64,000 nucleotides of DNA from Trypanosoma brucei (GCA_000002445.1 CP000069.1:736001-800000); one strand, 5' to 3'. Shown: positions 8,071-59,169, counted from the first letter of the stretch. A program made the numbers and translations. Notes: a model not told the origin generated them from the letters alone.

Positions 8071-8645
8071 CGTAAAGAGGAGAGGAGGGGGGGGGGCGGG
8101 AGCACAACACAAAAAATAAAGAGAACTGTGGAAAAAAAACAAGAAAGGGGTCTATAACTAGACTGCTCCAGTAAACATCTTTGGTTCCATTGTTGCTGGT
8201 GTTGCAAAGCTACATTTAATGAATTCCTGACTTTTCTGTTTGACTCTCTTAGTTATTTTTGTTTGTGCGGAAATCATTTTTTTTTGTTTTTACTTCTCGG
8301 GTCGAAGGGGCAGCAAAAGTACCGGCAGAAAGACGATATCGAAGATGAAAATGAAGGGGAGGGGGAGGGGAGAACACGGCGGCGTGATGCTTGTGGTAGT
8401 GGACAGTGGAAGGACAAGGGAGGGGCGATGATGCGAAAAAATTCGGACAAGCATAAATAGTTGCTCATTTTTTTGTAAGGAAGGACCATGGAGAAGGTTT
8501 GGTGCCATGGATATGAGTCACATTATTTGGATACCTGTCGCACTTATGTGCCCTTTTCTTCTGTTCAAGATGAGGGAGAAATCCGATAATGGTCAACTTT
8601 TGTAGTTATTACTGATTTGGACGCCCAAATTGCTTCCCTCCACTT

Positions 8646-30999: not shown

Positions 31000-33900
31000 A
31001 GGGAAGTAATGACGACATGGCGGAGAATCGAAGCTAATCAAATTATTAAGGTATGGGATCACGGGGAATATATGGATTTAAGATGTAAAAGAAATAATAA
31101 AGGAAGTAAAGTAAAAGAGCTTGTGGAGGATATTTAAAAAAAAATAATAGATGGTGGTGACATAAGTTATGATTTTTGACGAGGAAATTATGTGGAGGAG
31201 GCATTGATTGTAATGTTTCTTGTGCTTTCCACAACTTCCTCTTTCTTTCTTTCTTTGCGCGGATCTGCACATGTGTTTGTGTGTTTGTGTGTGTGTGTGT
31301 GTGTGTGCTTGTGTGTATATAAATATGCATAAATATGTGTTAAGAGTCCTGTTGATTAATGTTACACACATTTGGTCGTATTACTTAATGAAGAAATAAT
31401 GAAGATATGTGAAAGCACGCGCATGTATGAAAGAGTATGCGTTTAGGTAGAGGAGTAGTTTCTTTTTCTTTTTTCTTTATTTATCTTGGTGCACATGGTG
31501 CCGGGTGCTCATCTGCACTTCGTCTCTCCTGTATTTACCCATCGTATCAGCAAAGCGATATTGATGCAGTTTTTTTTTCTTGTGATTTTGTTTGTCATAA
31601 TCACTTTTTGTTTTCTTTCAAGTTATTTTCATCTTTTTTTTTTTTGGTGGGTTCACCTGCTTCTCTTGATTTTGTTCCTTTTTGTGAGATAACTCTTTTT
31701 TTTTTTTATTCAGCTTTTATCATATCTGCGTATAATAGCAAAAAAAAACAACACGCACACACTCACGTGCATACGCATATGCGTCAATTCATCCGCCTTT
31801 CTTTCAGTCTTTTCACTCTCTCCCGTCGCAAATTTCTTTTTTTCTTCTTTTTTTCTTCTTTTTTTCTTTTTGACTTTATTAAAATATATTTATATATTTA
31901 TATATTTATATATTTTTTTTCCTTTTCCTTTTCCCTTCCCATTTCCCTCAGAAGCGCATGCGAGAGCACACTCCTTGAATGGGGTTTTCATGTTCCAATC
32001 ATTGTGTGTGTTTGTATGACGCACTCTAGCACGTCGCTCTGTTTTTATTGTTTTTGTTATATTTTTCGTCCTCTCCATATAAATTAAATGAATGAATTAC
32101 TTATATTAATATATATTTTAAAAATAAAAATAATAAAAGTAATATATATATATATATAAATATACCATTTGCGCTTTTTTTTGTTTTGCTGCTCTTTTAA
32201 CTAGTGGATCACACACCGAGGAATTTGAATCAAAAAGGAGCCACTTCCCGCTGTTCGCACACTCTCAAAGAAGAAAAAAAAATAAATAACAGATAAGCGA
32301 AAGAAATTAATTTGATAAGACAGCAACGACAAAAGGGTGTTTACACAAAAAAAAAATAAAATAAGCGCAAGTAAAAGAACAAAGATTTATGTTTTAGAAA
32401 AAAAAAGCAAGATGGATGGTGTGTACATATAAGAAATTAAGTTAGGTTAAATTAAAGTGTTACCCTCAATTCCGTTTGCATTTCTGTTCTTTCCTCAAAG
32501 GGGGGGGGTGGAAGGAAAAGGAAGGAGAGAAAAAGAAAAGATGTAACATTACATATAAATATAATTATTTACCTATTTATTCATATTTGTGTCTTATTAG
32601 TTGAGTCAAAACGAAATTAAAAGAAAATTAAACGAAGTGTTTGTGTTGCAATTCATACTGTACATTAATATGAATAATGTTTACGCTTTTGCATATTATT
32701 TTGGTGTGAGTGAGTGAGTGAGTGTGGTGGGAAAGGGTTGCAGTAACACCTGTTGGGGGTTTTTCTTTTTCTTTTTTGTTGTTGTTACAAAATTATTATT
32801 ATTATTATTATTTTGTTTCCACCTCCTTTTTTTTTGGTTCTTGCCGTTACGGATTTATTTTTAGCCATACGGATGTTGTGGGAATGGAGGGTGAATGGAA
32901 ACAAACGAAGGTGAATAACAACATTTACGTTTATGGGATTTGGTTTAATTTTTTTAATTGTCTTTCTTCTTTTTTTTTTTTGGTTGTGTGCTTTCGCCGT
33001 CTCGTATCATATCAACTTGCGTGTGCCTCGCAATATGACGCATATGTGTTTTCTTTTTCTTTCTTCTTTTTTTTTTTGTAATAATTTCTCACTGGTACCA
33101 CATACGGTTCCGACATTATCAGGAACAACGTTACGGAACTAATTATGTTGATCATCATTTAATTCTTTTTTTTTTGTTGTTGCTCTTGTAGAAATTTTTT
33201 AAAAAAAGGAAAAAAAAGAGAATTTTCGAGACACTTCGTTTTATCTTGTTTTCGTTTTTTGTTTTTTGTTTTTTTTTGTGTTTTTTGTGTTTGTTTGTTT
33301 GCGGCTGCGGTGAGAAGTGACAAAAGCAGCGAAACCGAAACGTTTATGCGGGAAGGACAATATTATCTTTCTTTTTTTCTTTTTTTTATTCAGTAACGGG
33401 AAGGGGCGACAGTCGCTAAGCTCACACGTAAGCTCGTGCAAGAATGGTGGGACAGTTGAATATATTCCATAATAAATAAATATAAAAAAAAGGAAGGAAA
33501 AACACTCGCAATATTATTTCCTTTCTGGTTTTGAATGTATTTTATTTTCTCACCATTGTTTCCCTTCGTTTTTTCTTTGTGTATGTTTTTTTTGAAATAA
33601 AAAAAACACGTTTGACATGATGGAAAGGAAAGATATTTTTTTTTCTTTTCTTCCAATGTGTCCGTCAACTTCATATATTTATACTTATTAAAGTCAGCAT
33701 ATACCTATTGTTATTTATTTTATAAGTATATAAGTATATAAATAAATAAATATATATATGTATGTATGTGTGTGTAATCGTTTATTCATATTTGCTTTAT
33801 GGACCATTTTTTGCAGTTGATTCCCGTGCGTTTTATCCCTCTCTTCTTTTGTTAATTCTTTTTTGTTAATTTTGTTCATCTCCTTATATATTCCATCTTG

Positions 33901-34300
33901 AAGAAGCACAACTGTTGTTTGTGTGTTTCCTGTCCTGTGCTGCATATTCGTATGCTACTACGGCTCATGTGTTTTATTTAGTGCGTGAATTCACTTTACA
34001 CACCTAACTGCACTTTGCGATGTTGTAGTCCTTTTTCATCTTCATCTTTATCTTTGTATTGATATTTTGCTTTACTTTTAATTTAATTCCATTCAATTCA
34101 ATTTAATTCTTTTCCTATTTTTTTCTAAAAAAAAAAAATCATCTCATAACTTTTATATCATGCATTCCATCATTTCACCTGTAACTCTTATTACGCTTAG
34201 GTGCAGTGATAGTGGCTCATACTTACAGAACAAATATTAAGTTTGGACCTTAGTTGTAAGGAAGGAAAAAAGAAAAATAAAATAAAAAAATTAAAAAAAC
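31000..34300. repeat. Approx. 3.3 kb AT-rich low-complexity spacer (homopolymer T/A runs, (TG)n, (ATT)n, (GTGA)n, (TAAA)n)
   Basis: No ORF of normal complexity on either strand. Track ORFs here (e.g. 31437-32087) translate to Phe/Leu/Ser homopolymeric peptides. Many simple repeats: (GTGA)5 at 32702-32725, (ATT)n at 32796-32812, long T runs. Confidence 0.8.
31262..31318. repeat. (TG)n-rich microsatellite
   Basis: gcacatgtgtttgtgtgtttgtgtgtgtgtgtgtgtgtgcttgtgtgtatat. Confidence 0.9.
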
Positions 34301-34303
34301 ATC

Positions 34304-35263
34304 ATGATTCCGTCACAACTGAAGAGCATGACAACATTCACTAATGAGGGACGGGTAAAGCCTCCTATGAGCTACAGAGCAAATATTGATGTTTTGCCGC
34401 AGCACATTGTTACCAAATACTTTATCTTGGAAAAGGATAAGGAGACGACAGATTGGTTAAAAGAAGCTGCGAATGTTAGCGCATTAAGGATCTTAATAGC
34501 CAACCTGCTTCGCCATTTTGTTTCGCTCACTACCGCCAATGGAATTGTGGGAAGAGGCGGCATGTTTGTTGTGTCTACCGAACAGGCTGCGAACTTGCTG
34601 CTCGGAAGGACAATTGCTCAGCAATGGACGCGCTACAGGGACACGATGGAGCCGCCTTTCGAAACATTACTTGATGTTGGCGCTGGTGATGGAGGTGTTA
34701 CTTCTCGATTGCAGCCTCTCTTTAAGCGAGTGACTGCTACAGAATTTTCTATACCAATGCGCTGGCGTCTTTGGCGGCGTGGTTATGAGGTGCTTCCATA
34801 TCAGGACCCCTTCACAAATAAAGACGGCTCGAGGCGGTATTATGACGTAATTTCTTGTCTCAATGTTCTCGATCGCGCAGACAGGCCCCTTGACCTTCTG
34901 GCGTCCATGCGCGACTCGCTGGGTCCTGAAGGTATTCTTCTTTTGGCTGTTGTATTGCCATGGTGCCCGTTTGTGGAAGACGGAAGCATTAAGAGACGAC
35001 CATCACAGATGATGCCAATGGACGGTGGCGAGTGTTGCAAAGGTGCGACGTTCGAGCAGTCATTACAATGCCTTATGGATAACGTTTTGGTACCGTTTGG
35101 TTTTCAGTTGGAGCGGTGGTGTAAACTACCTTACCTTTGTGAGGGTAATATGATTGCTGAATATGCCGTGCTTCATGATGCTGTTATGGTGCTAACAAGG
35201 AAGGGAGACAGTGGTACTGCAACTGCGGAAAAAGATACAGATGGTAGTACTATCCATACTTGA
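34304..35263 (+). CDS. METTL9/DREV-family SAM-dependent methyltransferase (DUF858)
   Basis: SAM motif I LLDVGAGDGGVTSRLQPLFKRVTATEFSIPMRWRL parallels METTL9 ([35 protein letters not shown]). Upstream GIVGRGGMFVVSTEQ resembles the DREV N-terminal region. Confidence 0.6.
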   Translation: MIPSQLKSMTTFTNEGRVKPPMSYRANIDVLPQHIVTKYFILEKDKETTDWLKEAANVSALRILIANLLRHFVSLTTANGIVGRGGMFVVSTEQAANLLLGRTIAQQWTRYRDTMEPPFETLLDVGAGDGGVTSRLQPLFKRVTATEFSIPMRWRLWRRGYEVLPYQDPFTNKDGSRRYYDVISCLNVLDRADRPLDLLASMRDSLGPEGILLLAVVLPWCPFVEDGSIKRRPSQMMPMDGGECCKGATFEQSLQCLMDNVLVPFGFQLERWCKLPYLCEGNMIAEYAVLHDAVMVLTRKGDSGTATAEKDTDGSTIHT

Positions 35264-35665: not shown

Positions 35666-37933
35666 ATGAGCGCACCACCACCGCCACCACCACAACCATC
35701 TGGAGGATTTCCCCCGTCATATGCACCGCCTGCTCCTCCAGGCTTTAAAGCACCCCCGATGCCGCCTGGTTTTAAAGCACCTCCGATGCCACCCGGTTTC
35801 AAAATGCCCCCCAGACCGCCAATGCCGCCAGGATTCAAAATGCCTCCCGGTGGGCCGCGTCCACCGGGACCGCCAATGCCACCACATGCTCAACAGGGAT
35901 CATATCCAAATTACCCAACTCCTCCCGGAGCGCCTCCGATGCCACCCGGCGGTCGTTATGCCCCCGCACCGCCGCGACCCCCAAGTGGAGGATCGGATCA
36001 AGAAAATGGACAGGGTTATATGATGCATTCGGGCGCCGTGCACGGACAATATGACGCGTATGCACGAGAGGACTACAATTACGGAGTGCCTCCGGGTCCC
36101 GATTCACGCGGGTATTCGTCATATCATCCCTCACAACAATACCACCAGGGATACTATGGAGCTCCTGCTGCGCACGGTGGCGAAAATCGTGGCAACCGCC
36201 GTGATGAAGAGGCCCGTGAACCGACCAACACCGTGTGGGTGGGGAACCTGGACGTCCAGAGGCATTCGGATGACTTTCTGAGGCAAGAGTTTCGGGAATT
36301 TGGAAGGGTTGTACGCATTGCTAAGGTGCCTGACAAGAGTTATTGTTTTGTGCATTTCCGCTATGTGGAGGAGGCGCGTAACGCCGTTGAGACGCTTAGT
36401 GCGAGGGGCTCATTGGGTGGAGCAAGGTTTAGCTACGGCAAGATGTTTGACTACTCGCAGGATGAAGGGGGCATGCAGCAGGATGGAGGCATGTCAAATC
36501 AAGGAATGCGACCACCTCGACGTCCCCGTGAGGAGGAACGTCACGAACATGAAGAGCGCCGCCGGCGCCCTCGTCGCGATGAGGAACCGATGGAGCCGAC
36601 TAATGTGTTGTGGATTGGGGACCTTCCCCCAACTATTACAAATGAGGAGCTGAATGAGAATTTCAAGGTCTTTGGAACAATTTTAAATATTTCGAGATTA
36701 GACTGTAAGAATATGGCATTTATTCACTTCGAAAATATTGAAAGCTGTACGCAGGCTCTAGACTTAATGCGTGATCAGCTCATTTGTGGCGCCCGTGTTG
36801 CGCTTAATTACGGTCGAGCGCAACGCAATCCTGTCTCCCAGACGACCGGACTCTCACCAGATGGCATCCCACTTAGTGAAACCCCGACAAATGTAATATT
36901 CGTTGGGCAGTTTGCAACAGATGTGACAGAGGAGGATATAGAAGCTTTGTTTGAGCCTTTTGAAGGGTTCATCAATTCCAAGTTTATCCACTCCAGCTGC
37001 ATCGCCTTCGGACATTTCGATACAGTAGATCACGCCCGCGCCGCTCGTGTGGCATTGAACAACACTCTTTTAAAAGGGGCTCCTGCGCGCATTAGTTTCG
37101 GTAAGACAAATCACACACTTACCATGGCTGACCGCATGCGCCGGGGAAGACCAGCACCTCTTGTGGATGGAGTTGAGGTCATCCCTGAGACCGCTGCAGG
37201 TGCGCCGGGCCGTGGCTCGCTTGATGGCGTTAGCGGTGCACTTGTCGCAGGTCCTGGTTTGAGTGGTGCGTCGGAAAATGGAGCAGTGGTGATGATCCCT
37301 GCAATGGGTGCGGCTGTCACTGCCACCTCGCCCCCGCAAGCTCATGCTTCTTTTACGCGTGAGAGACCTGCTCCCGACATGACTTTAGATGCTCGGTTAC
37401 AATCACTTCTAGGTGCCACGTATAATTCCTGCGGAGAGGCGGAGAAGTCGTTAAGTCCGAGTGTTATTCAAACTATATGTGATTTGATCGATGACTGCGT
37501 GGATGAAGGTAGTGAGAAGCGACTGGATGACGCTATCTTTTTATACACTCCACTTAATTCGGCTCATGTGTTCGGCATTCTAGCCAAACGGATGCAAAGT
37601 TTTTTTAACGACGATCCTCACAAGAAACTTTACATTGCGTACGCAGCTACTCGCGTATTGTTGGCAGCGAAAACGGACTACGTTTTCTTTACCAAGGCTG
37701 CCATGAATGCCTACCTTATGGTATTATTTGTAACCAGTCAAGGACAAACACCTGATGGGATGGAGCAACTTGTCGCCATAATTGAAAGTGTGCGTCGACA
37801 CCCCTTCATTGAGAAACAGCGATTGGATGCCGAATATACGGAAATTTTCCGCGGCCAATTGGAGGAAATCCTCGGACGTGCAAAGGAAGAACAGGACCTG
37901 ACGTCTCTCATCACAAAGAAGAGGCGTCGGTAA
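35666..37933 (+). CDS. RNA-binding protein with three RRM domains, proline-rich repeat N-terminus, helical C-terminal domain
   Basis: RRM-like RNP motifs: NTVWVGNL...KSYCFVHF (RRM1), NVLWIGDLP...KNMAFIHF (RRM2), NVIFVGQF...SSCIAFGHF (RRM3). N-terminal tandem PPGFK(A/M)PPMPPGFK repeats at 35741-35852. Arg/Glu-rich linker. Confidence 0.8.
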   Translation: MSAPPPPPPQPSGGFPPSYAPPAPPGFKAPPMPPGFKAPPMPPGFKMPPRPPMPPGFKMPPGGPRPPGPPMPPHAQQGSYPNYPTPPGAPPMPPGGRYAPAPPRPPSGGSDQENGQGYMMHSGAVHGQYDAYAREDYNYGVPPGPDSRGYSSYHPSQQYHQGYYGAPAAHGGENRGNRRDEEAREPTNTVWVGNLDVQRHSDDFLRQEFREFGRVVRIAKVPDKSYCFVHFRYVEEARNAVETLSARGSLGGARFSYGKMFDYSQDEGGMQQDGGMSNQGMRPPRRPREEERHEHEERRRRPRRDEEPMEPTNVLWIGDLPPTITNEELNENFKVFGTILNISRLDCKNMAFIHFENIESCTQALDLMRDQLICGARVALNYGRAQRNPVSQTTGLSPDGIPLSETPTNVIFVGQFATDVTEEDIEALFEPFEGFINSKFIHSSCIAFGHFDTVDHARAARVALNNTLLKGAPARISFGKTNHTLTMADRMRRGRPAPLVDGVEVIPETAAGAPGRGSLDGVSGALVAGPGLSGASENGAVVMIPAMGAAVTATSPPQAHASFTRERPAPDMTLDARLQSLLGATYNSCGEAEKSLSPSVIQTICDLIDDCVDEGSEKRLDDAIFLYTPLNSAHVFGILAKRMQSFFNDDPHKKLYIAYAATRVLLAAKTDYVFFTKAAMNAYLMVLFVTSQGQTPDGMEQLVAIIESVRRHPFIEKQRLDAEYTEIFRGQLEEILGRAKEEQDLTSLITKKRRR

Positions 37934-38023
37934 ATATGATTGGATTTGATGATTTGGTTGTACTGCTGTTGTGCGGTCATGGAAGTGTTTGAAAATGGGG
38001 GAGGGAAATGAAGAGGAAAAGCA

Positions 38024-38095
38024 AGCAAGCAAACAAACAAACAAACAAACAAACGAACGAACAACAACAACAACAACAACAAAAACCGAGTGAAC
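38024..38095. repeat. (CAAA)n / (CGAA)n / (CAA)n compound microsatellite
   Basis: caagcaagcaaacaaacaaacaaacaaacaaacgaacgaacaacaacaacaacaacaacaaaaacc in the 3' flank of the RRM gene. Confidence 0.9.
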
Positions 38096-39699
38096 AAGAA
38101 TGACGCTGAAGGTATGTGTGTTAGGCGTGTAAAAAGAGTTGATTAGTGAAGAGATAAATTTTTTTAAAAAAGGGAAAATACATACGAAAGAAAGAAAGGA
38201 AGGAAACAAAAAAAAACAAAAAAAGCTGAATGCATGAAGAATGGTATTAAATAAAGATAACGCTTACTAGGAAAACACTTTGACGGAAACTGGGGAGAAT
38301 CGGATACTGAGGAAAAGAAAATGGTGAGCGCAGGTATTGCGTTTGGGAAGGACATCACAAAAAAAGTATGATGACGTGAGTACACTGCGACTGCCGCAAC
38401 GAAGCAGTAAAGTATGTTAAGTGCGGCGATGTTTTCTTTTTCTTTTTCCTTCCGATTATTTTGCGTGAGTTTACTGTACTCTATATATCTAATCCTGTGG
38501 TGCTGCTGTTGTTTTCACGTTGTGTTCTTGTTTTGTCTTTTCTGACGCGCAGACGAACCCTATTGGCAGTAAGGATGGCAAGGCGTGTTGGCGGGTGAAG
38601 ATTTCAAAAAAATAAAATAAAATAATAACAATAATGATTGAATTTTACCATGAAAATACGACACGGTGTGAATGAAGTAGAGAGGAGAATATATTATAAG
38701 TTTGTTCAGGCTATGATTTGTTTTTTTTCTCTTTAATCGTCATTATTACTATGGTATTTGTAAGCAATAAACGTAAGTGTGTTCGTGCGTCTGTTGCAAT
38801 CACACTCTCTGATCAAATATCTTCTGTTCTTTTTTTTTTCCCCCTCACTGGCTTTCCTTCCCATCTCGGCCTTCTTTGTTTTCTTGTGTGGTGTTGCTTA
38901 CCAGCATGCAAACAAATAATAATAATAATGATAACAATAATAATGTTGCGATTACTGACATGTAAACCTGCATACATACAAAAAATACAAAACAAGAAAC
39001 ACATACACATCAAACTAAATTATTTATGATATAAACCAACGTAAAACAAAATATTCAATGAATAACTACATAAATATACTTCTAATATATATATATATAT
39101 GTATAAGCTGTCTCTAGGTTGCCTTCGTTTACACCCTCTTACAGCTCGCGTGTGGATTCGTTTCCTTTGCCTTGTTGATTTGATATCTACTCTGTTAGTA
39201 TTTGCTCCGGTGTCTCTGTGTGCCTGTCTCGCTTCAACAACAACAACAAAATATATCCACATCTTCAGGAACATACCCGCATCTTCTCGTGCACGTGAAT
39301 ATTATTTATGATTGAACACTTGTATTTGCACCTACAAATGCATGTACATTTACATATATTATCGGTCAACTGGGTGCTGTTGCGGTGATGTTCGATGAGA
39401 GTTTTTGAGTAGAGTCGCACTAAAAAAAAAATGCACGGATTTCTCTTCTCTCGCTCATGCTTGATTCCTTCTCATCATTAACTGGCTGCGTTCTTTCCTT
39501 CATTCCTTCATATATTCAGTGTTGATTGGCCATTGTTTTTCTTTGTGGTTCCCGTACCTGATGCCTGGGGGTGGATCATCATTACCAGTTGTGTAATTAC
39601 AGGTGTGTTTTCAATTTCGTCATGCACTGAAGCCCGGATTTACTTTTTGCTGAAGGGTACGAAATATCCTTATGTGGTGTCTACGCTCGCTAAAACTAA

Positions 39700-39742
39700 A
39701 AAAAAAAGAAAGGAAGGAAGGAAGGAAGGAAGGAAGGAAGGA
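39700..39742. repeat. (GGAA)n microsatellite
   Basis: aaggaaggaaggaaggaaggaaggaaggaggagg. Confidence 0.9.
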
Positions 39743-42364
39743 GGAGGAAAAGAAAAAAAAAGAGGAATAAACAGCAACGGCGGAGGATCCAGAAAAAATT
39801 GTTTTGGGACATGACGAGCAAATGTGGTGCGCGGACGTTCATTTCTGAGGGAACTTATTGGATTTTTGTGCCGCATGAGTTACGTTAAGGCGTGTGTTGG
39901 ATGGGGAGATGCTTTTCAGTTCCTGGAGTTTACCGGTGGCGAATTCTAAAAGAGACTCGTCGGTTGTAGCATTTGGACATAGGTAATGCAGTTGTCATGT
40001 AACTTCATGCCTTCTCATTACCCATTTAAAAAAAAAATGAATGAGAATAAACAATGTTTTCCGGAAGCTGAAGAAAAAGAGTGGAGGGGTAAAGTGGGTA
40101 ACTGGAAGTCAAAAGCAACGTGTTTAGTGAGTTTTTTTTTTGTGGTAGTGGTGGTGGATTATTTCATCAGTTGCAAGACCGTCGCTGTTATTTTTGTGGT
40201 TTGAAAATTTCTCGTTCCGTTATTTGAAACTTCATGTGATGGTTTGGGAAACTGCTCCTCTTCCTGTAGGTGATAATTATTCTTTTAATTTTCCTTTTTT
40301 TTTTCTTTTTTTTTTGGGGGGGGGGGAGGGGGACGAGGAGAGGCTTGGTTTGCCAAGTGTATGTGTGCACTAAACAATATTTGCGCTGCATTTAATGATT
40401 GAAGAAGTTGAGAAATGCGGTTAATTTGCAAAGAAAGAGTGAGGGAAAGGGGAGATTGTTTTTTTTTTGTGAATCTTCACAATGGGGGACACGACCTCGT
40501 TTCTTTTTTTTTTTTTGTGCTGGTTTGAGGTTTATGGTTCGTCGACATTTTAAATATATATATATATATATATGTATTCTCCTTGTGCTGAACGCTTTGA
40601 CTAATTTTTCTTTGGTTTTTTAAAAACCATGTGAGTCTTACGGACTCCAATCTGCTTTACCTCTTGTTACTTGAGGCGCCTTTGTATGACATTGTTGGAA
40701 CTATATAAATATATATATATTTATGATTTTTTTTTTTTGTAGAGTCAATGGTTTTCGTTTCTGATAATTGATTTTGGTGGAAGGGCATAATAATCAAAGA
40801 GATGTCCGTGGAATTTGAAGAAGTACAAAAAGATAACCCGGTTAGTCAAGTGTTGTACGACCGTTCCCGTTTTATGCTCTGAGGCTTTTTGTTCTAAAAG
40901 GAACTAAAAAAATAACAATAATAATATAACAATAATCAGAAGCGTACGCAACCTTAACGAATGTTCCACCGACGTGCTTCGCTGAGTATTTTTATACATT
41001 TGTGAATGCACGTGTAGTGGAGGATGGGGAGGGGGTTTAATACTTCAATTCCGTTTCCCCCTTTGTTTGGTGAAGGTGCAGCGCCGTAAAATTATAAATA
41101 CTTTCTAGGGTTAAAATGGTATTATAACTTCCCTTTATTAATCCTGAGAGTGTATTGTAAGAATATCATCTGCCGCTAATGGATCCCTGTAATTCTATGA
41201 TTGTTCGCTAAGCCTGTAATTGCATTGGACAAGTAAAAACAGGATTGTGTACACAAACCGTCTAGTTGTGTTACTTTATTAAAGGGATCTATATTTTTTC
41301 CCCTTGAAAACCAGCGTTATGAACGTTTTACGACTTAGGATTACATAGTGTTAATTATGTACGGATTGCCCTATATAAACACACTTTCTTCCCCAATATT
41401 ATACAGCTATCTGCAAGGTGGTGTAGGTGTGTTAGAAAAAAGTACGTTTTAAGATATCAAAGATGTTGATGCATACATGATTAATCTTCTCTGAGGTAGA
41501 GTGGGTAACAAATATCAGGACATTTATGGAATTTGTTTGTAAAAAGGGGCTGACGCCTTTTTCTTTCGACTTTCGGCCAGCACTGAACCCGAGAACTGCA
41601 TGCCATGCGGATGATATGTTGACAACCGATGTTGAAAACCCTAATAGTGTTTACTTTGACAGAGAACGTAAAATGGATCTGGGATCGCTGAGGCAATTGA
41701 TGGTAAGTTTTGTGTTGCCTAGAAACTCAGATTTCTTAAAAGCTTTTTTAAGTGGCGGGAGAAGCACTGCGTGCGGAATGAGCTGCGTTAGAAGCCGGAG
41801 AATGAGCACTTTATTATCGGTTTGAAAGTGCATGTGCACAACTCTCCGACGAGAATGTTCGAGTGCAGCACGAATCAAATGAGCATCTGGGTTGGATGCA
41901 ACAACAGCTCACATATATGCAAGAAACAAAAGCACAGCAAGCAGCGGAAATTGGAGGTCTACGTACAATCGATTTCTACGATACGGCAAAAATTGGTCAT
42001 AACTGAAGGTAAGAGAGATAAGACAGGGGAGTGTCAGGAACAACAGAGCAAATCGGAAACAGGGAAGGCCAAACATATAGATGAATGTGCATGGAAAGGC
42101 TGTTTCTCATCGTAAGAAGTAACTTAACCTTTTTCACATAGGGTTTGATTTCGAGGGATCCAGGAATTACGGGCAAATGCATTGGGCTTTCCTGGAGGAG
42201 TAAGCACTGAAGAAAAAATTCGAACTTTTGATGGAATGATGAAATATCTCCAAGGAAGGACTCCTGAATAACTGTTATCAGCATATCAGTTAGTGTTTCC
42301 CACGCCAACAATATCGCCGGGACAGGTATATACCGAGGCATAAAAAAACTTCGCATCATAGGTA

Positions 42365-42700
42365 TTGCGCCTGCACCAAGACGGCATATCGAAGGAACGC
42401 CTCCAACTAGGAAAACAATTGTATGATAAGCTGTGCACAGTACAAACGGTAAAAGACTACCCGGGGCTGAGGTTTAAAGACATAAAGGAAACTATCGAAT
42501 TCCATCTCAAAAAGGGTGATATTTACATTCAGGCCACTATGAAGGCGAGACGACAACAACAACAACAAATCGGTGTCCCTCCGAGAAGGTCTCAATGTTT
42601 CACATGCGGACAATTGGGGCATTACAGCAATACTTGTGGGGTGTTCAAACATAAACTGAACACACGTCAAAAAAGAGACATTCGGCCCCAGAAGCAATGA
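42365..42700 (+). pseudogene. gag-like ORF fragment with CCHC zinc knuckle (part of the retroelement)
   Basis: CX2CX4HX4C motif CFTCGQLGHYSNTC preceded by a basic/Gln-rich stretch (KARRQQQQQ). Typical of retroelement nucleocapsid. Confidence 0.5.
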
Positions 42701-44934
42701 ATTTGGGGGCCGTTAATATTTCCCTACCCATACTCCACCACAAGGGAAAAACTAACACAACGGAGAAAGAGTCATACAGTGGAGGACGATAACAATTACC
42801 ACCCCTCGTCGACAAATGAGTTACCCGACACGGACGGGAATAGTACGACCCTTACGCGCAGAAAAGTCGACAGCAGCTCAACGTATGAGAGGAGCCTTTC
42901 AAGGGATCTGGGAAATGTCAAATGGAAATCAACAACACGCAACAAAGGTGTTCTTGGTAAACGACGTCACGGTTATTCTAGCTTCTGCACACGATACGTA
43001 TATTATGGCACTGGCTTCAGAAGCAAACAAAGTAGCAAAAAGGATGTGAACACGCACAACTTGGGAACAGAAAGGACCCATAATCTAAGGATTCTATGCT
43101 TTCGCAGACAAACACGGACTACCGGCTGTCGAAACGACAATCCCCTTGTTTATTGTAAGTTTGCAACTGGCAAAGAGCAGCACCATACAGTATACAAGGA
43201 CACTACTATCATCACTAGCCGCAGAGCATACACCAGCGCGAATGTATTTGTAGCCGGACTATGCAGAATGACAGGGGGAAATACCATAAAACAGGCTTGA
43301 CCCATGTTGCGTTGGGAGCTCGATCTCGCGTGTGACACTTTAACACTAGAGCGGGATCGAGTGGCTTTAAAGCTGACCTGAATCGCAGCCAGCAGATGGG
43401 GAGAAATAGCACAGCTACAAAAGGAGAATTTTGTGCTCCATCCACAAGACAAAAAAGATGATGCCATAGTGGTAAACTGAGGAGCACTCCCGAAGATATT
43501 CAAAAGCGACACACACAGAACCGCGAAGTATGTGGTGATAAGCGGAGAAGATGCAAGAAGGATCCGAAGGGTAATCAGGGAAATGGAGGGTAATGAAAAG
43601 CTCACATCTATTACAACAAAAGGAATGAAAGAAATACTACGCTCACTCGGGATGACTGCACATTCAATAAAGAGAGGGAAATTAGCACACGTAGAATTGG
43701 CATGAGTGGTGTAAAAACACAAGCCCTCGACTTAAGATTATTAACACAATTAGGAAAGCACGCAGACCCTCAGAAGCTTTCACGAAGTACGGTAAGACGC
43801 TATCTGTGTCGATGGAACACCACCATCAACAAGTCGGAGCGGTTAACCACGTTGATGTAAAACATCTGATAGGGAGAAAAGCAGATATGCCATGCAATAT
43901 GCCGGAATCCTCACGCCGAGCAGTGTTAGCTTTATTGACAAGAAAAAATTATCGAGGGCACATCATCATTCGACGTTCGCAAGGAACGCGGGCAGTGTCA
44001 GATGAAGAAGAGAGACATTACTTCTTCAGGAAGTAAATGTGGGTACATTGTCTTTGGAATTGGTACGAAGACGAATGTAGGATGAGGCACAGCAACGGTT
44101 TGACAATGTATGGAACTTGATGATTGCCACGGAACGAAATTCGAAAGAAAGAGACAGGGAGTCTCATTTGCGGATTGCGGAAAAAGACGCCGATTTATTG
44201 CCTGGTCCAAGGTAAAAAATGCCAGAAATGATTACGAGGTTGGAGTCCTGTTGGGACACATATCCCTATATCTAAGTGCAGTTTATGATGAATCCGCAGG
44301 GTTGTTTGATTTAAAGGCTTCTTTTTTTCCGGATGAACAAGCCACAAAAGACATTCGAGCGAGTTTCCGCTGTTGCACAGAAAAGTGGGGAACTGGTAGA
44401 ATTGAATCGATTCCCAATGGGTTAATAAATGAAGCCATGAAATTGTACAGACATCACGAGAGTTTTGGCAGGAGACTCAGAGGTAGTGAAACCACAATAT
44501 GCGGCCGCCAACGAATCGAGGGTTCACACGTAGATCGATAACATCCGTATCAGTAAACCACACAAAACGGTCAAAGAATGGGGGGACCACATTGCTAAAA
44601 ACATGAAAGAATGCGGGGCAACGGTTGCCGAGCAACAAAAAATGGTCACACGATACGAATTTATCGGGGTTTTATTTGACCATGACAAACAGACGGTTTT
44701 GTTGAATGCAAAGACAACACGGCGGATTCGAGAATCGGCTCCACTCGAGACAACGACCATAAAACAGATGGAGAGAGTTGTATTCTGCATGATATACGCG
44801 GCTGGTATTGGGGGGGGGAGCCATTTTTCTCTTACTATATTTTCTTTAAAATGATGCGTCGGCGTTTATCTCGCCTAAATAGGAAATTGGTGAACCATTC
44901 CGATCGGGATTAGCTGCCAAAAAATGCATTAAAG

Positions 44935-45370
44935 TTGGCGAAGCAGTGGATGAGCGAGTTGTTGAAAAATGTAGCAGTGGTTCCACCACAGGTTCATCCC
45001 TCCACGGCCACACTGGTGACAGATACCTCCGTGCAGGGATGGGGAGGGATGTTATTTCGAGATAAAGGAGAGATTATAATAGCAGGAGGCTCCTGGGAAA
45101 CGGCACCTCACATGATATCATAAGGAGAAGTGCGAGCGATTCAATTCGCATTGTTAGCGATTCGGGGGCGTTTCGATGGGCCATTGCAAATATACGTGGA
45201 TAACACCACCGTAATGCATATTATGAAGGAAGACGACGCGCATTCAAGCGCCCTAGTGCGATAGGCATCTGTAAAAAACAGGATATTACGACAGGAACAG
45301 ATAAATGCCACATGGTGTTACGTACATTCAGGGGTAAATCCAACCGATGGGATGTCTCGAGGGATACCTG
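44935..45370 (+). pseudogene. RNase H domain of the retroelement (interrupted by a stop codon)
   Basis: TDTSVQGWGG..(stop)..GEVRAIQFALLAI...LQIYVDNTTVMHIM...ATWCYVHSGVNPTDGMSRG reproduces the RNase H catalytic D, E, D and terminal H...N..AD..SR pattern. Confidence 0.55.
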
Positions 45371-45782
45371 TCAGGGGACAGGACTTGGCGATGGGGTGGA
45401 ACATGTGGAGGAGAGCGCGGGAGGAGGTTTTAAAGACGCTTTCAGCTCTTTCATATCGTTAGTAAATTATCGTTCATAAATCGTATTTGCGTGGGATGAG
45501 GATGAAGGAACACAACCGGGCATTTAAGGATAAATAATTATTTTTTATATCTTTCTTATCGGTAATAAAGGGAAGGTAATGCCTAAACTATTCCTCTTTT
45601 TACTTTCTTATGTCTTTCTTCTCTCCAAAATATACATTTTTTAATCTAAAGGAAAAAGGGGAAGGGGAACGTGTCGGGTTTATCGTAAGCGGTTTTGAAT
45701 TCTGATCACTAGCTGTTGGTAAGAGTTCGGAAAGGGAAACTTGAATTGTTTTTTATTACATTAAAGTGAAGGCCCACGGTCG

Positions 45783-46712
45783 ATGCCACGCCATTTACGC
45801 TCGTTTTTTTGGGTATTGGTGATTGCCATCAGTCATTGTTCTTTCTTACAGCTGACGACACCGGTAGCAGGTGCATCACAGGGGGAAGCAAATGTTGACT
45901 ACGATGCCATTTTGTTAGAGCATATGATGGCACAAACTTTCACAGTCAGTGTTTTCACGGAGCGATACGGCGTATTCAATGCAAGCCTTGTTCTTTCAGC
46001 TTCCTCTAATTTCCCTGAACTCATTCACGGTGAGCTCATTCCCACTGGAACACAGAGGTTAGAAACGAAGGAGCAGCGGGGTTTGGAACATTTTTCACAC
46101 AACCGTTCGATGCTTGGAGTCACGCCGCCACAGCAGGTTGCTAATGCCCACCCCTCTCTGTTAATCATAAACATTAAAATGGATTATTCTGGGGCATCGG
46201 CAGGAACCTTTAGTGCCTGGAGTCTCCCAGCAGCGGATCGAGAATTACAAACTCGTTTGACGACACTAGATGAGAAAGAAATAAATCCAACGGTTTCAGC
46301 CAGTTTTTCCTTTCTCCCTGTCGTGACCGCTGCAATTCCCTCTTCACTGAGCGATATCCAACTTGCTCCACGCATGGCGAGTGGGACAGTCTCAATGGAG
46401 GATGGGAAGAAAGGAACCTTTACACTTAACTTTCTCTCGGACCATGAGTTTTCTCTAATAGTGAGATTAGAGGGTGATACTTCGTCTTTTGATAACATTT
46501 GGGCGCACGGGTACGCAAAACCAAATGATGTCTTATTTCCTCGTCGTCCCCCGTATAAACCCCCGGTTTGGCTCATTTGGCTGATGTCAGGTGCATGGTT
46601 ATCGGTTGTCTTGTTTCAAGTTATTAGTTATTGTTATTCTAACGATCATTCTGTGCAACCGAAGCAAATCGTCCGTGTGGCACCACCCGCCAAGGGCAAG
46701 AAGGTCAACTGA
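45783..46712 (+). CDS. Hypothetical type-I membrane protein (signal peptide + C-terminal TM)
   Basis: N-terminal hydrophobic signal-like segment FFWVLVIAISHCSFLQLTTPVAGA. C-terminal TM VWLIWLMSGAWLSVVLFQVISYC followed by a short basic tail. 309 aa. Confidence 0.5.
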   Translation: MPRHLRSFFWVLVIAISHCSFLQLTTPVAGASQGEANVDYDAILLEHMMAQTFTVSVFTERYGVFNASLVLSASSNFPELIHGELIPTGTQRLETKEQRGLEHFSHNRSMLGVTPPQQVANAHPSLLIINIKMDYSGASAGTFSAWSLPAADRELQTRLTTLDEKEINPTVSASFSFLPVVTAAIPSSLSDIQLAPRMASGTVSMEDGKKGTFTLNFLSDHEFSLIVRLEGDTSSFDNIWAHGYAKPNDVLFPRRPPYKPPVWLIWLMSGAWLSVVLFQVISYCYSNDHSVQPKQIVRVAPPAKGKKVN

Positions 46713-57567: not shown

Positions 57568-59169
57568 ATGTTCAGTGGTCAGAATGAGAAACCGAAAGGG
57601 GCGAAACAAACCCCTTCGGTTCGAGGGGGTGCGGAGCGCCGGCAGCGGCAGATGATTAACATTCGACAGAAGGCCCACGGTGAGCTCATTAAACACATCC
57701 GCGAGGAAGAAGTAGCAATGGAAGGAGTTGATGGGCCCACGGTACCAGACCCCGGAAACGTTTGGTCGTACGATCAAAGAACCCGTCCCGATGACGTTCC
57801 GGTTCAGCTACTTCCCCAGTTCGTTCAGATGGTTATGAACGGCCCAACAGATAGAGAGGTATACCACGGGACACTGATGGTTCGCAAGTTACTTTCGGTG
57901 GAGAGGTCTCCCCCGCATGAAATGGTCGCCCAAAGTGGTGTCATTCCGCACCTTGTGAGCTTCCTGGACCGTGCAGATAACCCGGAACTGCAATTTGAAG
58001 CGGCTTGGGCATTGACGAATGTTGCTGCTGGCACATCCGCGAACACTATGATCCTCGTTGAGGTTGGGGCTATTCCGCGCTTTATCAACTTGCTCAGTTC
58101 ACCTAGTCCTGACTGTCGTGACCAGGGTGCATGGGCTATTGGCAATATGGCCGGTGATGGTGTTGCCACCCGAGATATTGCATTGCAACATAATGCTATT
58201 CCTGCTTTTGTCAACCTTATTTCAGACCCCGATCAACCTCTATCCATCGTTCGCAATGCAACGTGGGCTATATCCAACTTGTGCCGTGGGAAGCCTGCTC
58301 CCCCGCTGCATTATTTGCTACCCACGCTACCTGCTTTAGCCAATTTACTTTTTCACAGGGATCTGGAGATCGCCACAGATGCGTCATGGGCGATTTCGTA
58401 CGTTAGCGATGGTCCACACGAGCGCGTACAAGCGGTGTTGGATACTGGTGTTGTTCCCCGCGTTATAGAACTCCTCGCGGCAACGTCAATTCCGCTTCAA
58501 ACGTCATGCATCCGAACCATTGGCAACATCGCGAGTGGCAATGATGCACAAACACAAGTGATTATTAACTGTGGCGTATTGGAAAAGCTTGCTCCCCTTG
58601 TCACACACCGCAAGCGGGAGATTCGCAAGGAAACATGCTGGACTATCTCCAATATTGCCGCCGGCAATTCAGAGCAAATCGACGCACTCATCAAATCAGA
58701 TCTCTTTCCATTGGTTATCAAATGTCTCCAAGGTACGGAACTGGATGTGAAGAAGGAGGCCGTGTGGTCTATCGCCAACGTAACTCTCTGCGGAGTTTCC
58801 CCACATTTGTATTATCTTTTGGACTGCGGTGTCATCCCTCCGTTATGTGATGTCTTGAACACGCATGATCCCAAAACTCTTACAGTTGCCCTCGAAGCTC
58901 TCATGGGATTTCTGCAGGTGGGCGAAGACAGAGTTAAAACAGGAGAAGTACAGGAGAACCCCGTGGCGCGTGCCATCATTGAGTGCGGTGGTGTGGATGC
59001 CATTGAGCGTGCGCAATCCTCCACAGACTCCAGCATATACAGCATTGCACTTTGTCTCCTCGAGACATTCTTTAACGTGGAAGAGGAGGGAGCACCTCAG
59101 CAGTTTGAGTTGGGGATGGATCATGGAGATCCAAATGGACAACCACCACAAGGCCAGTTCGATCTTTGA
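57568..59169 (+). CDS. Importin subunit alpha (karyopherin alpha)
   Basis: N-terminal IBB-like basic region (RGGAERRQRQMINIRQKAHGEL). Armadillo repeats with EAAWALTNVAAGTS, WAIGNMAGDG and WAISNLCRGK signatures. 533 aa. Confidence 0.9.
   Translation: MFSGQNEKPKGAKQTPSVRGGAERRQRQMINIRQKAHGELIKHIREEEVAMEGVDGPTVPDPGNVWSYDQRTRPDDVPVQLLPQFVQMVMNGPTDREVYHGTLMVRKLLSVERSPPHEMVAQSGVIPHLVSFLDRADNPELQFEAAWALTNVAAGTSANTMILVEVGAIPRFINLLSSPSPDCRDQGAWAIGNMAGDGVATRDIALQHNAIPAFVNLISDPDQPLSIVRNATWAISNLCRGKPAPPLHYLLPTLPALANLLFHRDLEIATDASWAISYVSDGPHERVQAVLDTGVVPRVIELLAATSIPLQTSCIRTIGNIASGNDAQTQVIINCGVLEKLAPLVTHRKREIRKETCWTISNIAAGNSEQIDALIKSDLFPLVIKCLQGTELDVKKEAVWSIANVTLCGVSPHLYYLLDCGVIPPLCDVLNTHDPKTLTVALEALMGFLQVGEDRVKTGEVQENPVARAIIECGGVDAIERAQSSTDSSIYSIALCLLETFFNVEEEGAPQQFELGMDHGDPNGQPPQGQFDL

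What the first reader, a model, noticed from the sequence alone, without database searches (positions are those of the whole stretch)
41400..45480. Frameshifted retroelement relic (gag knuckle - RT - RNase H) embedded in a polycistronic gene array
This is the only part of the window whose + strand ORFs hop between three frames and whose composition (A-rich, few T-runs) differs from both genes and spacers. It carries a CCHC nucleocapsid knuckle (CFTCGQLGHYSNTC), an RT thumb-like F-IG motif and a recognisable RNase H ending in H..N..AD..SR. The order gag-RT-RNH and the absence of an integrase point towards a DIRS/VIPER-like tyrosine-recombinase element or a decayed non-LTR element rather than a Ty3-like LTR element. 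I could not find a tyrosine recombinase or terminal repeats, so the family is unresolved. Its insertion inside an otherwise gene-dense directional cluster, next to a 3.5 kb repeat-rich spacer, suggests a tolerated insertion site. It may be worth checking for siRNA production or an effect on downstream transcript processing.
Basis: partly seen in the sequence, partly recalled or inferred. Interest (0 to 1): 0.6.

Follow-up and report, generated by a model that had tools for sequence, protein, structure and literature searches.

The report
Dead VIPER retrotransposon in Trypanosoma brucei
This is a long-dead, full-length copy of VIPER, a known tyrosine-recombinase retrotransposon family, lying between two genes on Trypanosoma brucei chromosome 6, and the copy at this site is already catalogued, so it is ordinary.

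Summary
Window 41463-45462 (+) is one collinear retroelement relic. The window itself is T. brucei brucei TREU927 chromosome 6.

The relic has three ORF remnants in the VIPER order:
- a gag-like ORF1 with a CCHC knuckle (42596-42637);
- an RT/RNase H ORF3 (43812-45462) that overlaps ORF2.

Stitched translations match VIPER-type proteins of T. theileri and T. grayi (E 4e-113 for RT/RH, 4e-88 for YR, 2e-34 for gag). About 11 frameshifts, about 22 in-frame stops and a 26-aa deletion in the RT show that it is dead.

T. b. gambiense has the same insert with many of the same lesions. The syntenic spacer of T. cruzi, T. rangeli and T. grayi is only 1.5-2.0 kb and has no VIPER homology.

I found no terminal or split direct repeats.

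Ribeiro et al. 2019 list the gambiense copy by coordinates, and a TREU927 chr 6 copy, as degenerate copies (T. brucei gave hits to VIPER queries only). So this is already known, and interest is low.

One side observation: 927 and gambiense differ 3-8 times more inside the relic than in the flanks, in tight clumps. That suggests ectopic gene conversion between copies, or assembly mosaics.

The parts
41463..42700 (+). ORF1 relic, gag-like protein. The probable original ATG is at 41463 and the stop is at 42698-42700. An early in-frame stop lies at 41478. Downstream there are 4 frameshifts (near 41763, 41935, 42083, 42198) and 6 in-frame stops (41779, 41803, 42120, 42269, 42341, 42359).
   Evidence: A frameshift-aware alignment to T. 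theileri VIPER ORF1 (L002:6603-7868) covers its aa 9-421 at 37% identity. tblastn of the L001 gag ORF gives E 2e-34 for 42155-42697.
42596..42637 (+). CCHC zinc knuckle CFTCGQLGHYSNTC (CX2CX4HX4C) at the C-terminal end of gag.
   Evidence: Pfam zf-CCHC, E 1.8e-4, above the curated cut-off. It aligns with CYRCGRIGHYSSTC of T. theileri gag. It is unique in the window, with 0 of 100 shuffles matching.
42915..43860 (+). ORF2 relic, a Cre-like tyrosine recombinase. The ATG is at 42915 (MSNGNQQ, compare MGNST of P0044) and the stop at 43858-43860. There are 2 frameshifts (near 43245 and 43724) and 7 in-frame stops (43047, 43086, 43298, 43379, 43478, 43703, 43712). The catalytic positions are still readable: R 43394-96 (ASRWGE), K 43502-04, H-S-I-K-R 43661-75, H 43759-61 (GKHAD), Y 43801-03.
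   Evidence: 64% identity to the intact 319-aa T. theileri YR P0044 over its aa 27-319. Stitched query E 3.6e-88. A 41-member family profile hits Cre recombinase at E 8.5e-8, and R171, K202, H258, K261, H288 and Y301 are nearly invariant.
43812..45462 (+). ORF3 relic, reverse transcriptase plus RNase H. The ATG at 43812 overlaps the end of ORF2 by 49 nt, and the stop is TAG at 45460-62. There are about 4 frameshifts after the ATG (near 44016, 44144, 44383, 44810; the aligner's fifth, near 43726, lies upstream in the ORF2 overlap) and 8 in-frame stops (44078, 44423, 44426, 44438, 44531, 44911, 45121, 45262). A 26-aa deletion lies near 44190.

RT motifs:
- motif A, FDLKASFF, D at 44308-10;
- LPMG-type motif B near 44410;
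- motif C, W-I-D-N, with the W mutated to a stop at 44531 and the D at 44537-39;
- YEFIG at 44654-68.

RNase H catalytic positions: D 45022-24, E 45127-29, D 45199-201, D 45346-48.
   Evidence: Stitched query E 4e-113 at 49% identity and 91% coverage to T. theileri P0001. Homologues carry Pfam RVT_1 and RVT_3. Alignment A1. 84-87% identity over the first 130 residues (65% further on) to P0049, an ORF of another TREU927 VIPER copy that starts at the same Met and keeps the 26 aa missing here.
45463..45540 (+). Possible short remnant of the element's 3' untranslated end. The true 3' boundary is undefined.
   Evidence: A VIPER fragment at the start of a T. equiperdum scaffold stays alignable to about 45495. 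No B1-A2-B2 repeats were found. The pyrimidine-rich tract at 45545-45626, ahead of the next CDS at 45783, is read directly from the sequence. Its role as the trans-splicing signal of the downstream gene is inference.
37934..41462 (+). Context, not shown to be part of the element: a 3.5 kb low-complexity spacer between the RRM-protein gene (35666-37933) and the relic. It holds (CAAA)n at 38022-38064, (AAGG)n at 39706-39742, (TA)n and poly-T runs. The 5' boundary of the element lies somewhere at or upstream of 41463.
   Evidence: No VIPER protein homology upstream of 41487. No Rfam family and no tRNA.

Best explanation
Window 41463-45462 (+) is a degenerate but nearly full-length copy of VIPER (vestigial interposed retroelement). 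VIPER is a VIPER-like member of the DIRS order of tyrosine-recombinase retrotransposons. This copy sits in the spacer between an RRM-protein gene and a conserved transmembrane-protein gene on T. brucei TREU927 chromosome 6.

How the live element is thought to have worked (established model for DIRS-type elements, inferred here, not shown):
- Its RNA is bound by the gag-like protein through the CCHC knuckle.
- The RNA is copied by the RT/RNase H into DNA.
- The split direct repeats let that DNA close into a circle.
- The Cre-like tyrosine recombinase inserts the circle into the chromosome without a target-site duplication.

What this copy can do: nothing of that. All three ORFs are broken (about 11 frameshifts, about 22 stops, a 26-aa deletion in the RT fingers/palm region, and a stop replacing the W of the W-I-D-N active-site motif). 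No terminal repeats survive.

History: it inserted in the T. brucei lineage after that lineage separated from the T. cruzi / T. rangeli / T. grayi lineages. It was already dead before T. b. brucei and T. b. gambiense diverged.

Present state (inference): it is passenger DNA in sense orientation within a Pol II polycistron. It is presumably transcribed as part of the precursor and discarded during trans-splicing and polyadenylation of its neighbours.
For: - Host and locus: exact protein look-ups place the window on TREU927 chr 6.
- All three ORFs, in VIPER order, are collinear with T. theileri elements L001 and L002.
- RT/RH: E 4e-113 to T. theileri and 1.5e-107 to T. grayi 'TcC31.12'. Homologues carry RVT_1/RVT_3.
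- YR: E 3.6e-88 and 64% identity to intact P0044. The family profile hits Cre at E 8.5e-8, and the catalytic R, K, H, H and Y positions are retained.
- gag: 37% identity, including the CCHC box.
- ORF2 and ORF3 overlap, as described for VIPER (PMC12278014).
- Lesions are counted. Many are shared with the DAL972 orthologue.
- The insert is colinear in DAL972.
- It is absent from the syntenic 1.5-2.0 kb spacers of T. grayi, T. cruzi (two strains) and T. rangeli.
- Literature: VIPER is known in T. brucei and is degenerate there. The RepeatMasker count is 76 copies (PMC12278014, Table 1).
- Ribeiro 2019 Additional file 2 lists Tbg972_06_540613_556837 and Tb927_06_v5.1_771232_787690 as degenerated copies. 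Their Additional file 1 shows T. brucei hits only in the first three of its six query columns. The column headers were not shown; I read those three as the VIPER queries and the last three, all zero, as the TATE queries. The DAL972 relic lies at FN554969.1 546,620-550,607, which is the centre of the first interval.
Against: - No split direct repeats, terminal repeats or target-site features were found, so the element's ends are undefined.
- Pfam models applied directly to the window translation give only sub-threshold RT/RNase H signals (RVT_3, E 0.045) and nothing for the YR. The domain assignments therefore rest on homologues and family profiles.
- The chromosomal coordinates of the window could not be read directly. 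Identity with the listed Tb927_06 copy is inferred from the gambiense orthologue.
- The nearest relatives are T. theileri and T. grayi elements, not the T. cruzi reference VIPER. Only a weak hit to a T. cruzi fragment was seen (E 1.3e-13).
Confidence: 0.95

Rival explanations
1. This is a domesticated VIPER-derived sequence: a host gene or functional non-coding RNA retained at this site, like the VIPER-derived gene reported in Leishmania braziliensis and relatives.
For: A domestication precedent exists in trypanosomatids (PMC5146736, listed). The catalytic residues of the YR and RNase H are still readable. The copy is retained at the same site in two subspecies.
Against: - There are about 33 disabling lesions spread over all three ORFs, and the longest open stretch is about 200 codons.
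- 927 and gambiense each carry further private stops, including one inside the CCHC knuckle of gambiense.
- Divergence inside the relic is higher than in the flanking spacers, not lower.
- The element is absent from the syntenic site in T. cruzi, T. rangeli and T. grayi.
- No Rfam family matches.
Confidence: 0.02
2. This is a decayed non-LTR retroposon of the ingi/L1Tc/DIRE clade, or SLACS/CRE, rather than a tyrosine-recombinase element.
For: ingi, RIME and DIRE are by far the commonest retroelements in T. brucei (1314 INGI copies against 76 VIPER copies; PMC12278014). The element also has RT followed by RNase H.
Against: - A Cre-like tyrosine recombinase lies between gag and RT.
- There is no AP-endonuclease or restriction-like endonuclease signal in the Pfam scan of the translated segments.
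- There is no poly(A) tail after the last ORF.
- All strong protein hits are VIPER-type.
Confidence: 0.01
3. This is a chance juxtaposition: an ordinary host CCHC zinc-knuckle gene next to an unrelated RT/RNase H fragment.
For: CCHC knuckle proteins are common host genes in trypanosomes (general knowledge).
Against: - The knuckle sits at the C-terminus of a frame-broken ORF that is homologous over about 400 aa to ORF1 of T. theileri VIPER elements.
- The same knuckle occupies the same position in those elements.
- In those elements ORF1 lies directly upstream of the YR and RT/RH, as it does here.
Confidence: 0.01

Closest known systems
VIPER (vestigial interposed retroelement) of trypanosomes; VIPER-like subgroup of DIRS-order tyrosine-recombinase retrotransposons (Vazquez 2000; Lorenzi 2006; Ribeiro 2019, PMC6681497)
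   Same: - The three-ORF order is the same: gag-like with CX2CX4HX4C, then YR, then an overlapping RT/RNase H.
- Protein homology to T. theileri and T. grayi VIPER ORFs is strong.
- The W-I-D-N RT motif C and the H-S-I-K-R-G box of the YR are shared with the whole family.
- The degenerate state is as reported for every T. brucei copy.
- The gambiense orthologue is in the published list of copies.
   Different: - No split direct repeats (A1 ... B1-A2-B2) are detectable.
- There is a 26-aa deletion in the RT.
- The copy is only distantly similar to the T. cruzi reference VIPER.
- Ribeiro et al. reported 0 tblastn gag hits in T. brucei, whereas a gag relic with its knuckle is clearly recognisable here when T. 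theileri ORF1 is the query. This is a minor detail.
TATE (telomere-associated transposable element) of Leishmania and other trypanosomatids
   Same: It is the sister group, with the same gag - YR - RT/RH architecture and split direct repeats.
   Different: TATE is reported as absent from T. brucei (0 copies in PMC12278014 Table 1; no hits in the three columns of Ribeiro 2019 Additional file 1 that I read as the TATE queries). I did not run a TATE-versus-VIPER phylogeny myself.
DIRS1, Ngaro and PAT elements, and Crypton YR transposons
   Same: They share the use of a tyrosine recombinase instead of a DDE integrase. They also lack a target-site duplication, and (except Crypton) have an RT/RNase H of the LTR-retroelement type.
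   Different: DIRS1 has inverted terminal repeats and an internal complementary region, and its gene order is gag - RT/RH - YR. No such repeats are present here, and the YR precedes the RT. Cryptons have no RT.
Cre recombinase of phage P1 (solved structures such as 7rhy and 1crx)
   Same: The VIPER YR family profile aligns to Cre residues 16-203 at E 8.5e-8, including the positions of Cre R173 and K201. The HSIKRGA box aligns with Cre HSARVGA.
   Different: The relationship is only remote. Lys, not Arg, occupies the column of the second catalytic Arg, with an Arg immediately after it. The protein belongs to a retroelement rather than a phage.

Membership tests
VIPER / VIPER-like (DIRS order) | Gag-like ORF1, in several species with a CX2CX4HX4C box | tested here: met
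   41463-42700 aligns with T. theileri VIPER ORF1 (37% identity over about 394 aa; tblastn E 2e-34). The knuckle at 42596-42637 passes the Pfam zf-CCHC cut-off.
VIPER / VIPER-like (DIRS order) | ORF2 encoding a tyrosine recombinase with the catalytic R...K...H-x-x-(R/K)...H...Y set | tested here: met
   42915-43860 is 64% identical to intact YR P0044. All six positions are readable. The family profile hits Cre at E 8.5e-8. The ORF is broken by 7 stops and 2 frameshifts.
VIPER / VIPER-like (DIRS order) | ORF3 encoding RT plus RNase H, overlapping the end of ORF2, in the order gag - YR - RT/RH | tested here: met
   43812-45462: E 4e-113 to T. theileri RT/RH. RT motifs A, B and C and the RNase H D-E-D-D positions are identified. 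There is a 49-nt overlap with ORF2. The start Met is shared with P0049.
VIPER / VIPER-like (DIRS order) | Split direct repeats: A1 at the 5' end and B1-A2-B2 at the 3' end | tested here: inconclusive
   No direct repeat of 18 nt or more other than low-complexity runs in 37900-46000. blastn-short of the 5' flank against the 3' flank gives only 8-14 nt chance matches. Decay or truncation could have erased the repeats. [quoted passage not shown]
VIPER / VIPER-like (DIRS order) | No target-site duplication | not testable with these tools
   The ends of the element cannot be located.
VIPER / VIPER-like (DIRS order) | Listed as a VIPER copy by the curators of the family | tested here: met
   The DAL972 orthologue (FN554969.1 546,620-550,607) lies at the centre of Tbg972_06_540613_556837 in Additional file 2 of PMC6681497. 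A TREU927 chr 6 copy, Tb927_06_v5.1_771232_787690, is listed too. Identity of the latter with this window is inferred.
ingi / L1Tc / DIRE non-LTR retroposons | AP endonuclease N-terminal to the RT, a single long ORF, a 3' poly(A) tail and a target-site duplication | tested here: not met
   No endonuclease family appears in the Pfam scan of the translated segments. A YR lies upstream of the RT. No A-run follows 45462. I did not have ingi protein sequences to search with directly.
Ty3/Gypsy-type LTR retrotransposons | DDE integrase (rve) downstream of RNase H, an aspartic protease, and long terminal repeats | tested here: not met
   No rve or RVP hit. The RT/RH ORF ends at 45462, 320 bp before the next host gene. 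No LTRs.
DIRS1-like sensu stricto | Inverted terminal repeats plus an internal complementary region, with the YR downstream of RT/RH | tested here: not met
   The only inverted repeats are (TA)n and poly-purine low-complexity pairs. The YR lies upstream of the RT.

The most novel reading that the evidence does not exclude
The dead VIPER copies of T. brucei may still be exchanging sequence with one another by short-tract ectopic gene conversion. That would make this relic a mosaic that evolves several times faster than its flanks, and dispersed VIPER relics would act as recombination partners within the chromosome cores.

The evidence here is 5.2% divergence between 927 and gambiense inside the relic, against 0.6-1.8% in the flanking spacers. 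The differences come in clumps of up to 25 per 100 bp beside 335-bp identical runs.

Repeat mis-assembly, or divergent haplotypes collapsed differently in the two assemblies, would explain the same pattern.
Probability: 0.3. Interest if true: 0.3.

Novelty: already known. Interest (0 to 1): 0.1.

Why it matters
It matters little beyond correct annotation.
- It shows that this 4 kb stretch is a VIPER relic, not a gene. Short ORFs called inside it, such as the 204-aa gene call in DAL972 or P0049 in another copy, are artefacts.
- It dates the insertion to after the T. brucei lineage separated from the T. cruzi / T. grayi lineages and before the T. brucei subspecies diverged.
- It documents that a gag relic with a CCHC box and a YR with readable catalytic residues survive in T. 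brucei copies.
- If the clumped divergence reflects real gene conversion, VIPER relics would be a small, tractable system for measuring ectopic recombination in trypanosome core chromosomes.

Tried and rejected
- Pfam directly on ten stop-free translated segments gave only zf-CCHC and a sub-threshold RVT_3 hit. Homologue-based searches resolved it.
- My first stitched YR query used the wrong frame after 43703. That stretch is the start of ORF3. I corrected it against P0044.
- Searches for terminal, split direct or inverted repeats found only low-complexity matches. I used the repeat finder, TRF, blastn-short of the 5' flank against the 3' flank, and a self-comparison of the 3' flank.
- I tried to fix the element's ends by comparing non-coding flanks with the two T. 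theileri copies. There was no usable similarity. L001 and L002 themselves align only over their coding parts.
- I tried to fetch a second T. brucei copy through P0049, and to read the window's chromosomal coordinates through two window proteins. None was on record.
- Rfam and tRNA scans of the whole window found nothing.
- A search for other VIPER fragments in the window found none, by protein or by DNA.
- The RT/RH profile against PDB gave only weak hits (HIV-1 RT at E 0.003). That is consistent but not independent proof.
- T. congolense and T. vivax orthologues of the flanking gene were not returned, so the insertion could not be dated within the African trypanosomes.

Full report
**Where the window comes from.** Exact-sequence look-ups of six window ORFs return Trypanosoma brucei brucei TREU927 proteins on a 1,618,915-bp record, which is chromosome 6. 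Examples are the DREV methyltransferase XP_845375 at 34304-35263, the hypothetical protein XP_845377 at 45783-46712 and importin alpha XP_845385 at 57568-59169. All ORFs of 200 aa or more lie on the + strand, so the window is one directional polycistronic cluster. The ORF at 35666-37933 was not found by exact look-up. Its orthologues in T. grayi, T. cruzi, T. rangeli and DAL972 carry RRM_1 domains. No ORF of 200 aa or more lies between that gene and the gene at 45783.

**Checking the observation.**
- Frames: between 41.4 and 45.5 kb the + strand has only short open stretches that move among all three frames.
- Composition: the stretch is A-rich, at 32.9% A against 25.8% for the window and about 24.5% for neighbouring CDSs. 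AT skew is +0.26 to +0.28.
- Knuckle: CFTCGQLGHYSNTC is at 42596-42637. It passes the Pfam zf-CCHC cut-off and is unique in the window.
- Pfam applied directly to the translated pieces otherwise gives only a sub-threshold RNase H signal (RVT_3, E 0.045). Models alone would therefore not have settled the matter.

**What it is.**
- RT/RNase H: a translation stitched across the frames from 44104 to 45459 hits uncharacterised or mis-named proteins of T. theileri (E 4e-113, 49% identity, 91% coverage), T. grayi ('TcC31.12', 1.5e-107), T. melophagium, Leptomonas pyrrhocoris and Diplonema. Several of these carry RVT_1 and RVT_3.
- Reference elements: the genomic loci of two T. theileri hits (L001, L002) show the arrangement gag-like ORF, then YR ORF, then RT/RH ORF.
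- Collinearity: tblastn and a frameshift-aware protein-to-DNA alignment show the window is collinear with that whole arrangement:
  - gag aa 9-421 on 41487-42697 (37% identity);
  - the intact 319-aa YR P0044 aa 27-319 on 42960-43857 (64% identity);
  - RT/RH on about 43.7-45.46 kb (48% identity).
- ORF starts and stops: the likely start codons are 41463, 42915 and 43812. The third coincides with Met1 of P0049, an ORF annotated in another TREU927 VIPER copy that is 84-87% identical over its first 130 residues and 65% further on. The stops are at 42698-42700, 43858-43860 and 45460-45462. ORF3 thus overlaps ORF2 by 49 nt, as described for VIPER (PMC12278014).

- An exhaustive search with P0044 finds 636 relatives.
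- In an alignment of 41 of them, R171, K202, H258, K261, H288 and Y301 are nearly invariant.
- The family profile hits Cre recombinase at E 8.5e-8. It aligns ASRW with the Cre R173 region, TKT with Cre K201, and AHSIKRGA with Cre HSARVGA.
- In the window all these positions are still readable: R 43394, K 43502, HSIKR 43661-43675, H 43759 and Y 43801.
- The ORF nevertheless carries 7 stops and 2 frameshifts.

**RT/RNase H detail.** Alignment A1 shows motif A (FDLKASFF), an LPMG motif B, and the family's W-I-D-N motif C. Here the W codon of motif C is a stop at 44531. A 26-aa conserved segment (PF.V.EEK region) is deleted near 44190, relative to T. theileri and to P0049.

**State of the copy.** Counting per ORF:
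- gag has 4 frameshifts and 6 stops, plus an early stop at 41478;
- the YR has 2 frameshifts and 7 stops;
- the RT/RH alignment gives 5 frameshifts and 8 stops; one of the five, near 43726, lies upstream of the ORF3 start in the ORF2 overlap.

The element is dead. No split direct repeats, LTRs or inverted terminal repeats are detectable around it. No other VIPER fragment lies in the window. Its exact ends could not be fixed. The 5' end is at or upstream of 41463. The 3' end lies between 45462 and the pyrimidine tract at 45545-45626 that precedes the next gene. The role of that tract in trans-splicing is inference.

**History.**
- T. b. gambiense DAL972 is colinear through the whole region, with an intergenic distance of 7884 bp against 7849 bp here and 97.1% identity. 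It shares most disabling lesions. The copy was therefore dead before the subspecies separated.
- In T. grayi, T. cruzi (two strains) and T. rangeli the same two genes are neighbours, separated by only 1.5-2.0 kb. Those loci have no VIPER protein homology.
- The insertion is thus specific to the T. brucei lineage, or to African trypanosomes more broadly. T. congolense and T. vivax could not be tested.

**Comparison with what is known.**
- VIPER was described in T. cruzi and later in T. brucei and T. vivax (Lorenzi 2006, as cited in PMC6681497 and PMC6390901).
- T. brucei copies are few and degenerate. A recent survey counts 76 RepeatMasker copies and no TATE (PMC12278014).
- Ribeiro et al. 2019 list Tbg972_06_540613_556837 and Tb927_06_v5.1_771232_787690 as 'degenerated' copies. 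Their Additional file 1 shows T. brucei hits only in the first three of its six query columns. The column headers were not shown; I read those three as the VIPER queries and the other three, all zero, as the TATE queries.
- The DAL972 relic lies at FN554969.1 546,620-550,607 (L007 5690-9677 plus offset 540,930). That is the centre of the listed gambiense interval. The TREU927 chr 6 entry is therefore almost certainly this very copy. This is inference, because I could not read the window's chromosomal coordinates.
- The finding is therefore already known. The only small additions are these. A gag relic with its CCHC box is recognisable in T. brucei when T. theileri ORF1 is used as the query; Ribeiro's tblastn counted 0 gag hits. 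The YR catalytic positions are also all still readable.

**Mechanism.** The sequence shows three broken ORFs of the VIPER type in sense orientation within the polycistron. The mechanism of the ancestral live element is inferred from the established DIRS-type model: gag-bound RNA, reverse transcription, circularisation through the split repeats, and YR-mediated integration without a target-site duplication. The present copy's status as inert passenger DNA, removed during pre-mRNA processing, is also inferred. The element is in sense orientation and has no local inverted partner, so nothing here predicts siRNA production. The main survey of T. brucei siRNA loci does not contain the word VIPER (PMC3447711; 0 occurrences).

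**Rivals.**
- A domesticated VIPER-derived gene is contradicted by the lesions, by the private stops in each subspecies, and by divergence that is higher than in the flanks.
- A non-LTR relic is contradicted by the YR, the lack of an endonuclease signal and the lack of a poly(A) tail.
- A host CCHC gene is contradicted by gag homology and position.

**Side observation.**
- TREU927 and DAL972 differ by 0.3-1.0% in the flanking CDSs, 1.8% in the upstream spacer and 0.6% in the downstream spacer. Inside the relic they differ by 5.2%, and by 8.2% in the YR part.
- The differences are clumped. There are 25 per 100 bp at 45082-45181 and 20 per 100 bp at 43605-43704, next to a 335-bp identical run. 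The index of dispersion is 3.47, against a maximum of 1.46 in 2000 permutations.
- A T. equiperdum scaffold starts inside the RNase H part and is mosaic in the same way.
- Possible explanations are ectopic gene conversion among dispersed VIPER copies, repeat mis-assembly, and haplotype differences. I could not separate them.

**Verdict.** The novelty class is already known, and interest is low.

Noticed in passing
window 41487-45462 compared with L007 5690-9677 (T. b. gambiense DAL972): Divergence between the two subspecies is 5.2% inside the VIPER relic (8.2% in the YR part), against 0.3-1.8% in the flanking genes and spacers. It is strongly clumped, for example 25 differences in 45082-45181 and none in 44078-44413. 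This suggests ectopic gene conversion among VIPER copies, or assembly mosaics.
   Followed up: partly
L008 1-400 (T. equiperdum scaffold CZPT02001150.1), equivalent to window 45112-45500: The T. equiperdum scaffold begins inside the RNase H part of the relic and is followed by a run of N. The assembly therefore broke at this repeat. The fragment is mosaic relative to both 927 and gambiense.
   Followed up: partly
window 37934-41462: The spacer upstream of the relic is 3.5 kb of low-complexity DNA, with (CAAA)n, (AAGG)n, (TA)n and poly-T/poly-A runs. The whole intergenic distance in T. cruzi, T. rangeli and T. grayi is only 1.5-2.0 kb. About 1.5-2 kb of extra T. brucei sequence is therefore unexplained by the recognisable VIPER body. 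It has no protein, Rfam or tRNA signal.
   Followed up: partly
L007 6983-7597 (DAL972), and P0049 (TREU927, another locus): Gene callers have annotated short ORFs inside VIPER relics as hypothetical proteins: a 204-aa call inside the gambiense copy, and the 227-aa P0049 in another TREU927 copy. T. theileri VIPER ORFs carry misleading names such as 'trans-sialidase' and 'target of rapamycin kinase 1'.
   Followed up: no
L001 7434-10244 (T. theileri NBCO01000004.1): The 937-codon open frame of this T. theileri copy reads through the YR region in the wrong frame. The correct-frame YR segment is the separate 145-codon stretch at 7849-8283. This 'potentially coding' copy is therefore itself frameshifted.
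   Followed up: partly
alignment A2 (VIPER-type YR family), P0044 positions 258-263: In the box that aligns with Cre H289-x-x-R292 (HSARVGA), the family has H-S-I-K-R-G-A. A nearly invariant Lys occupies the column of the second catalytic Arg, and an Arg comes one position later.
   Followed up: no
window 31001-34000: This stretch has a markedly low G+C content (0.30-0.34, against about 0.45-0.50 elsewhere). It lies between genes and contains a 216-aa ORF at 31437-32087. I did not examine it.
   Followed up: no
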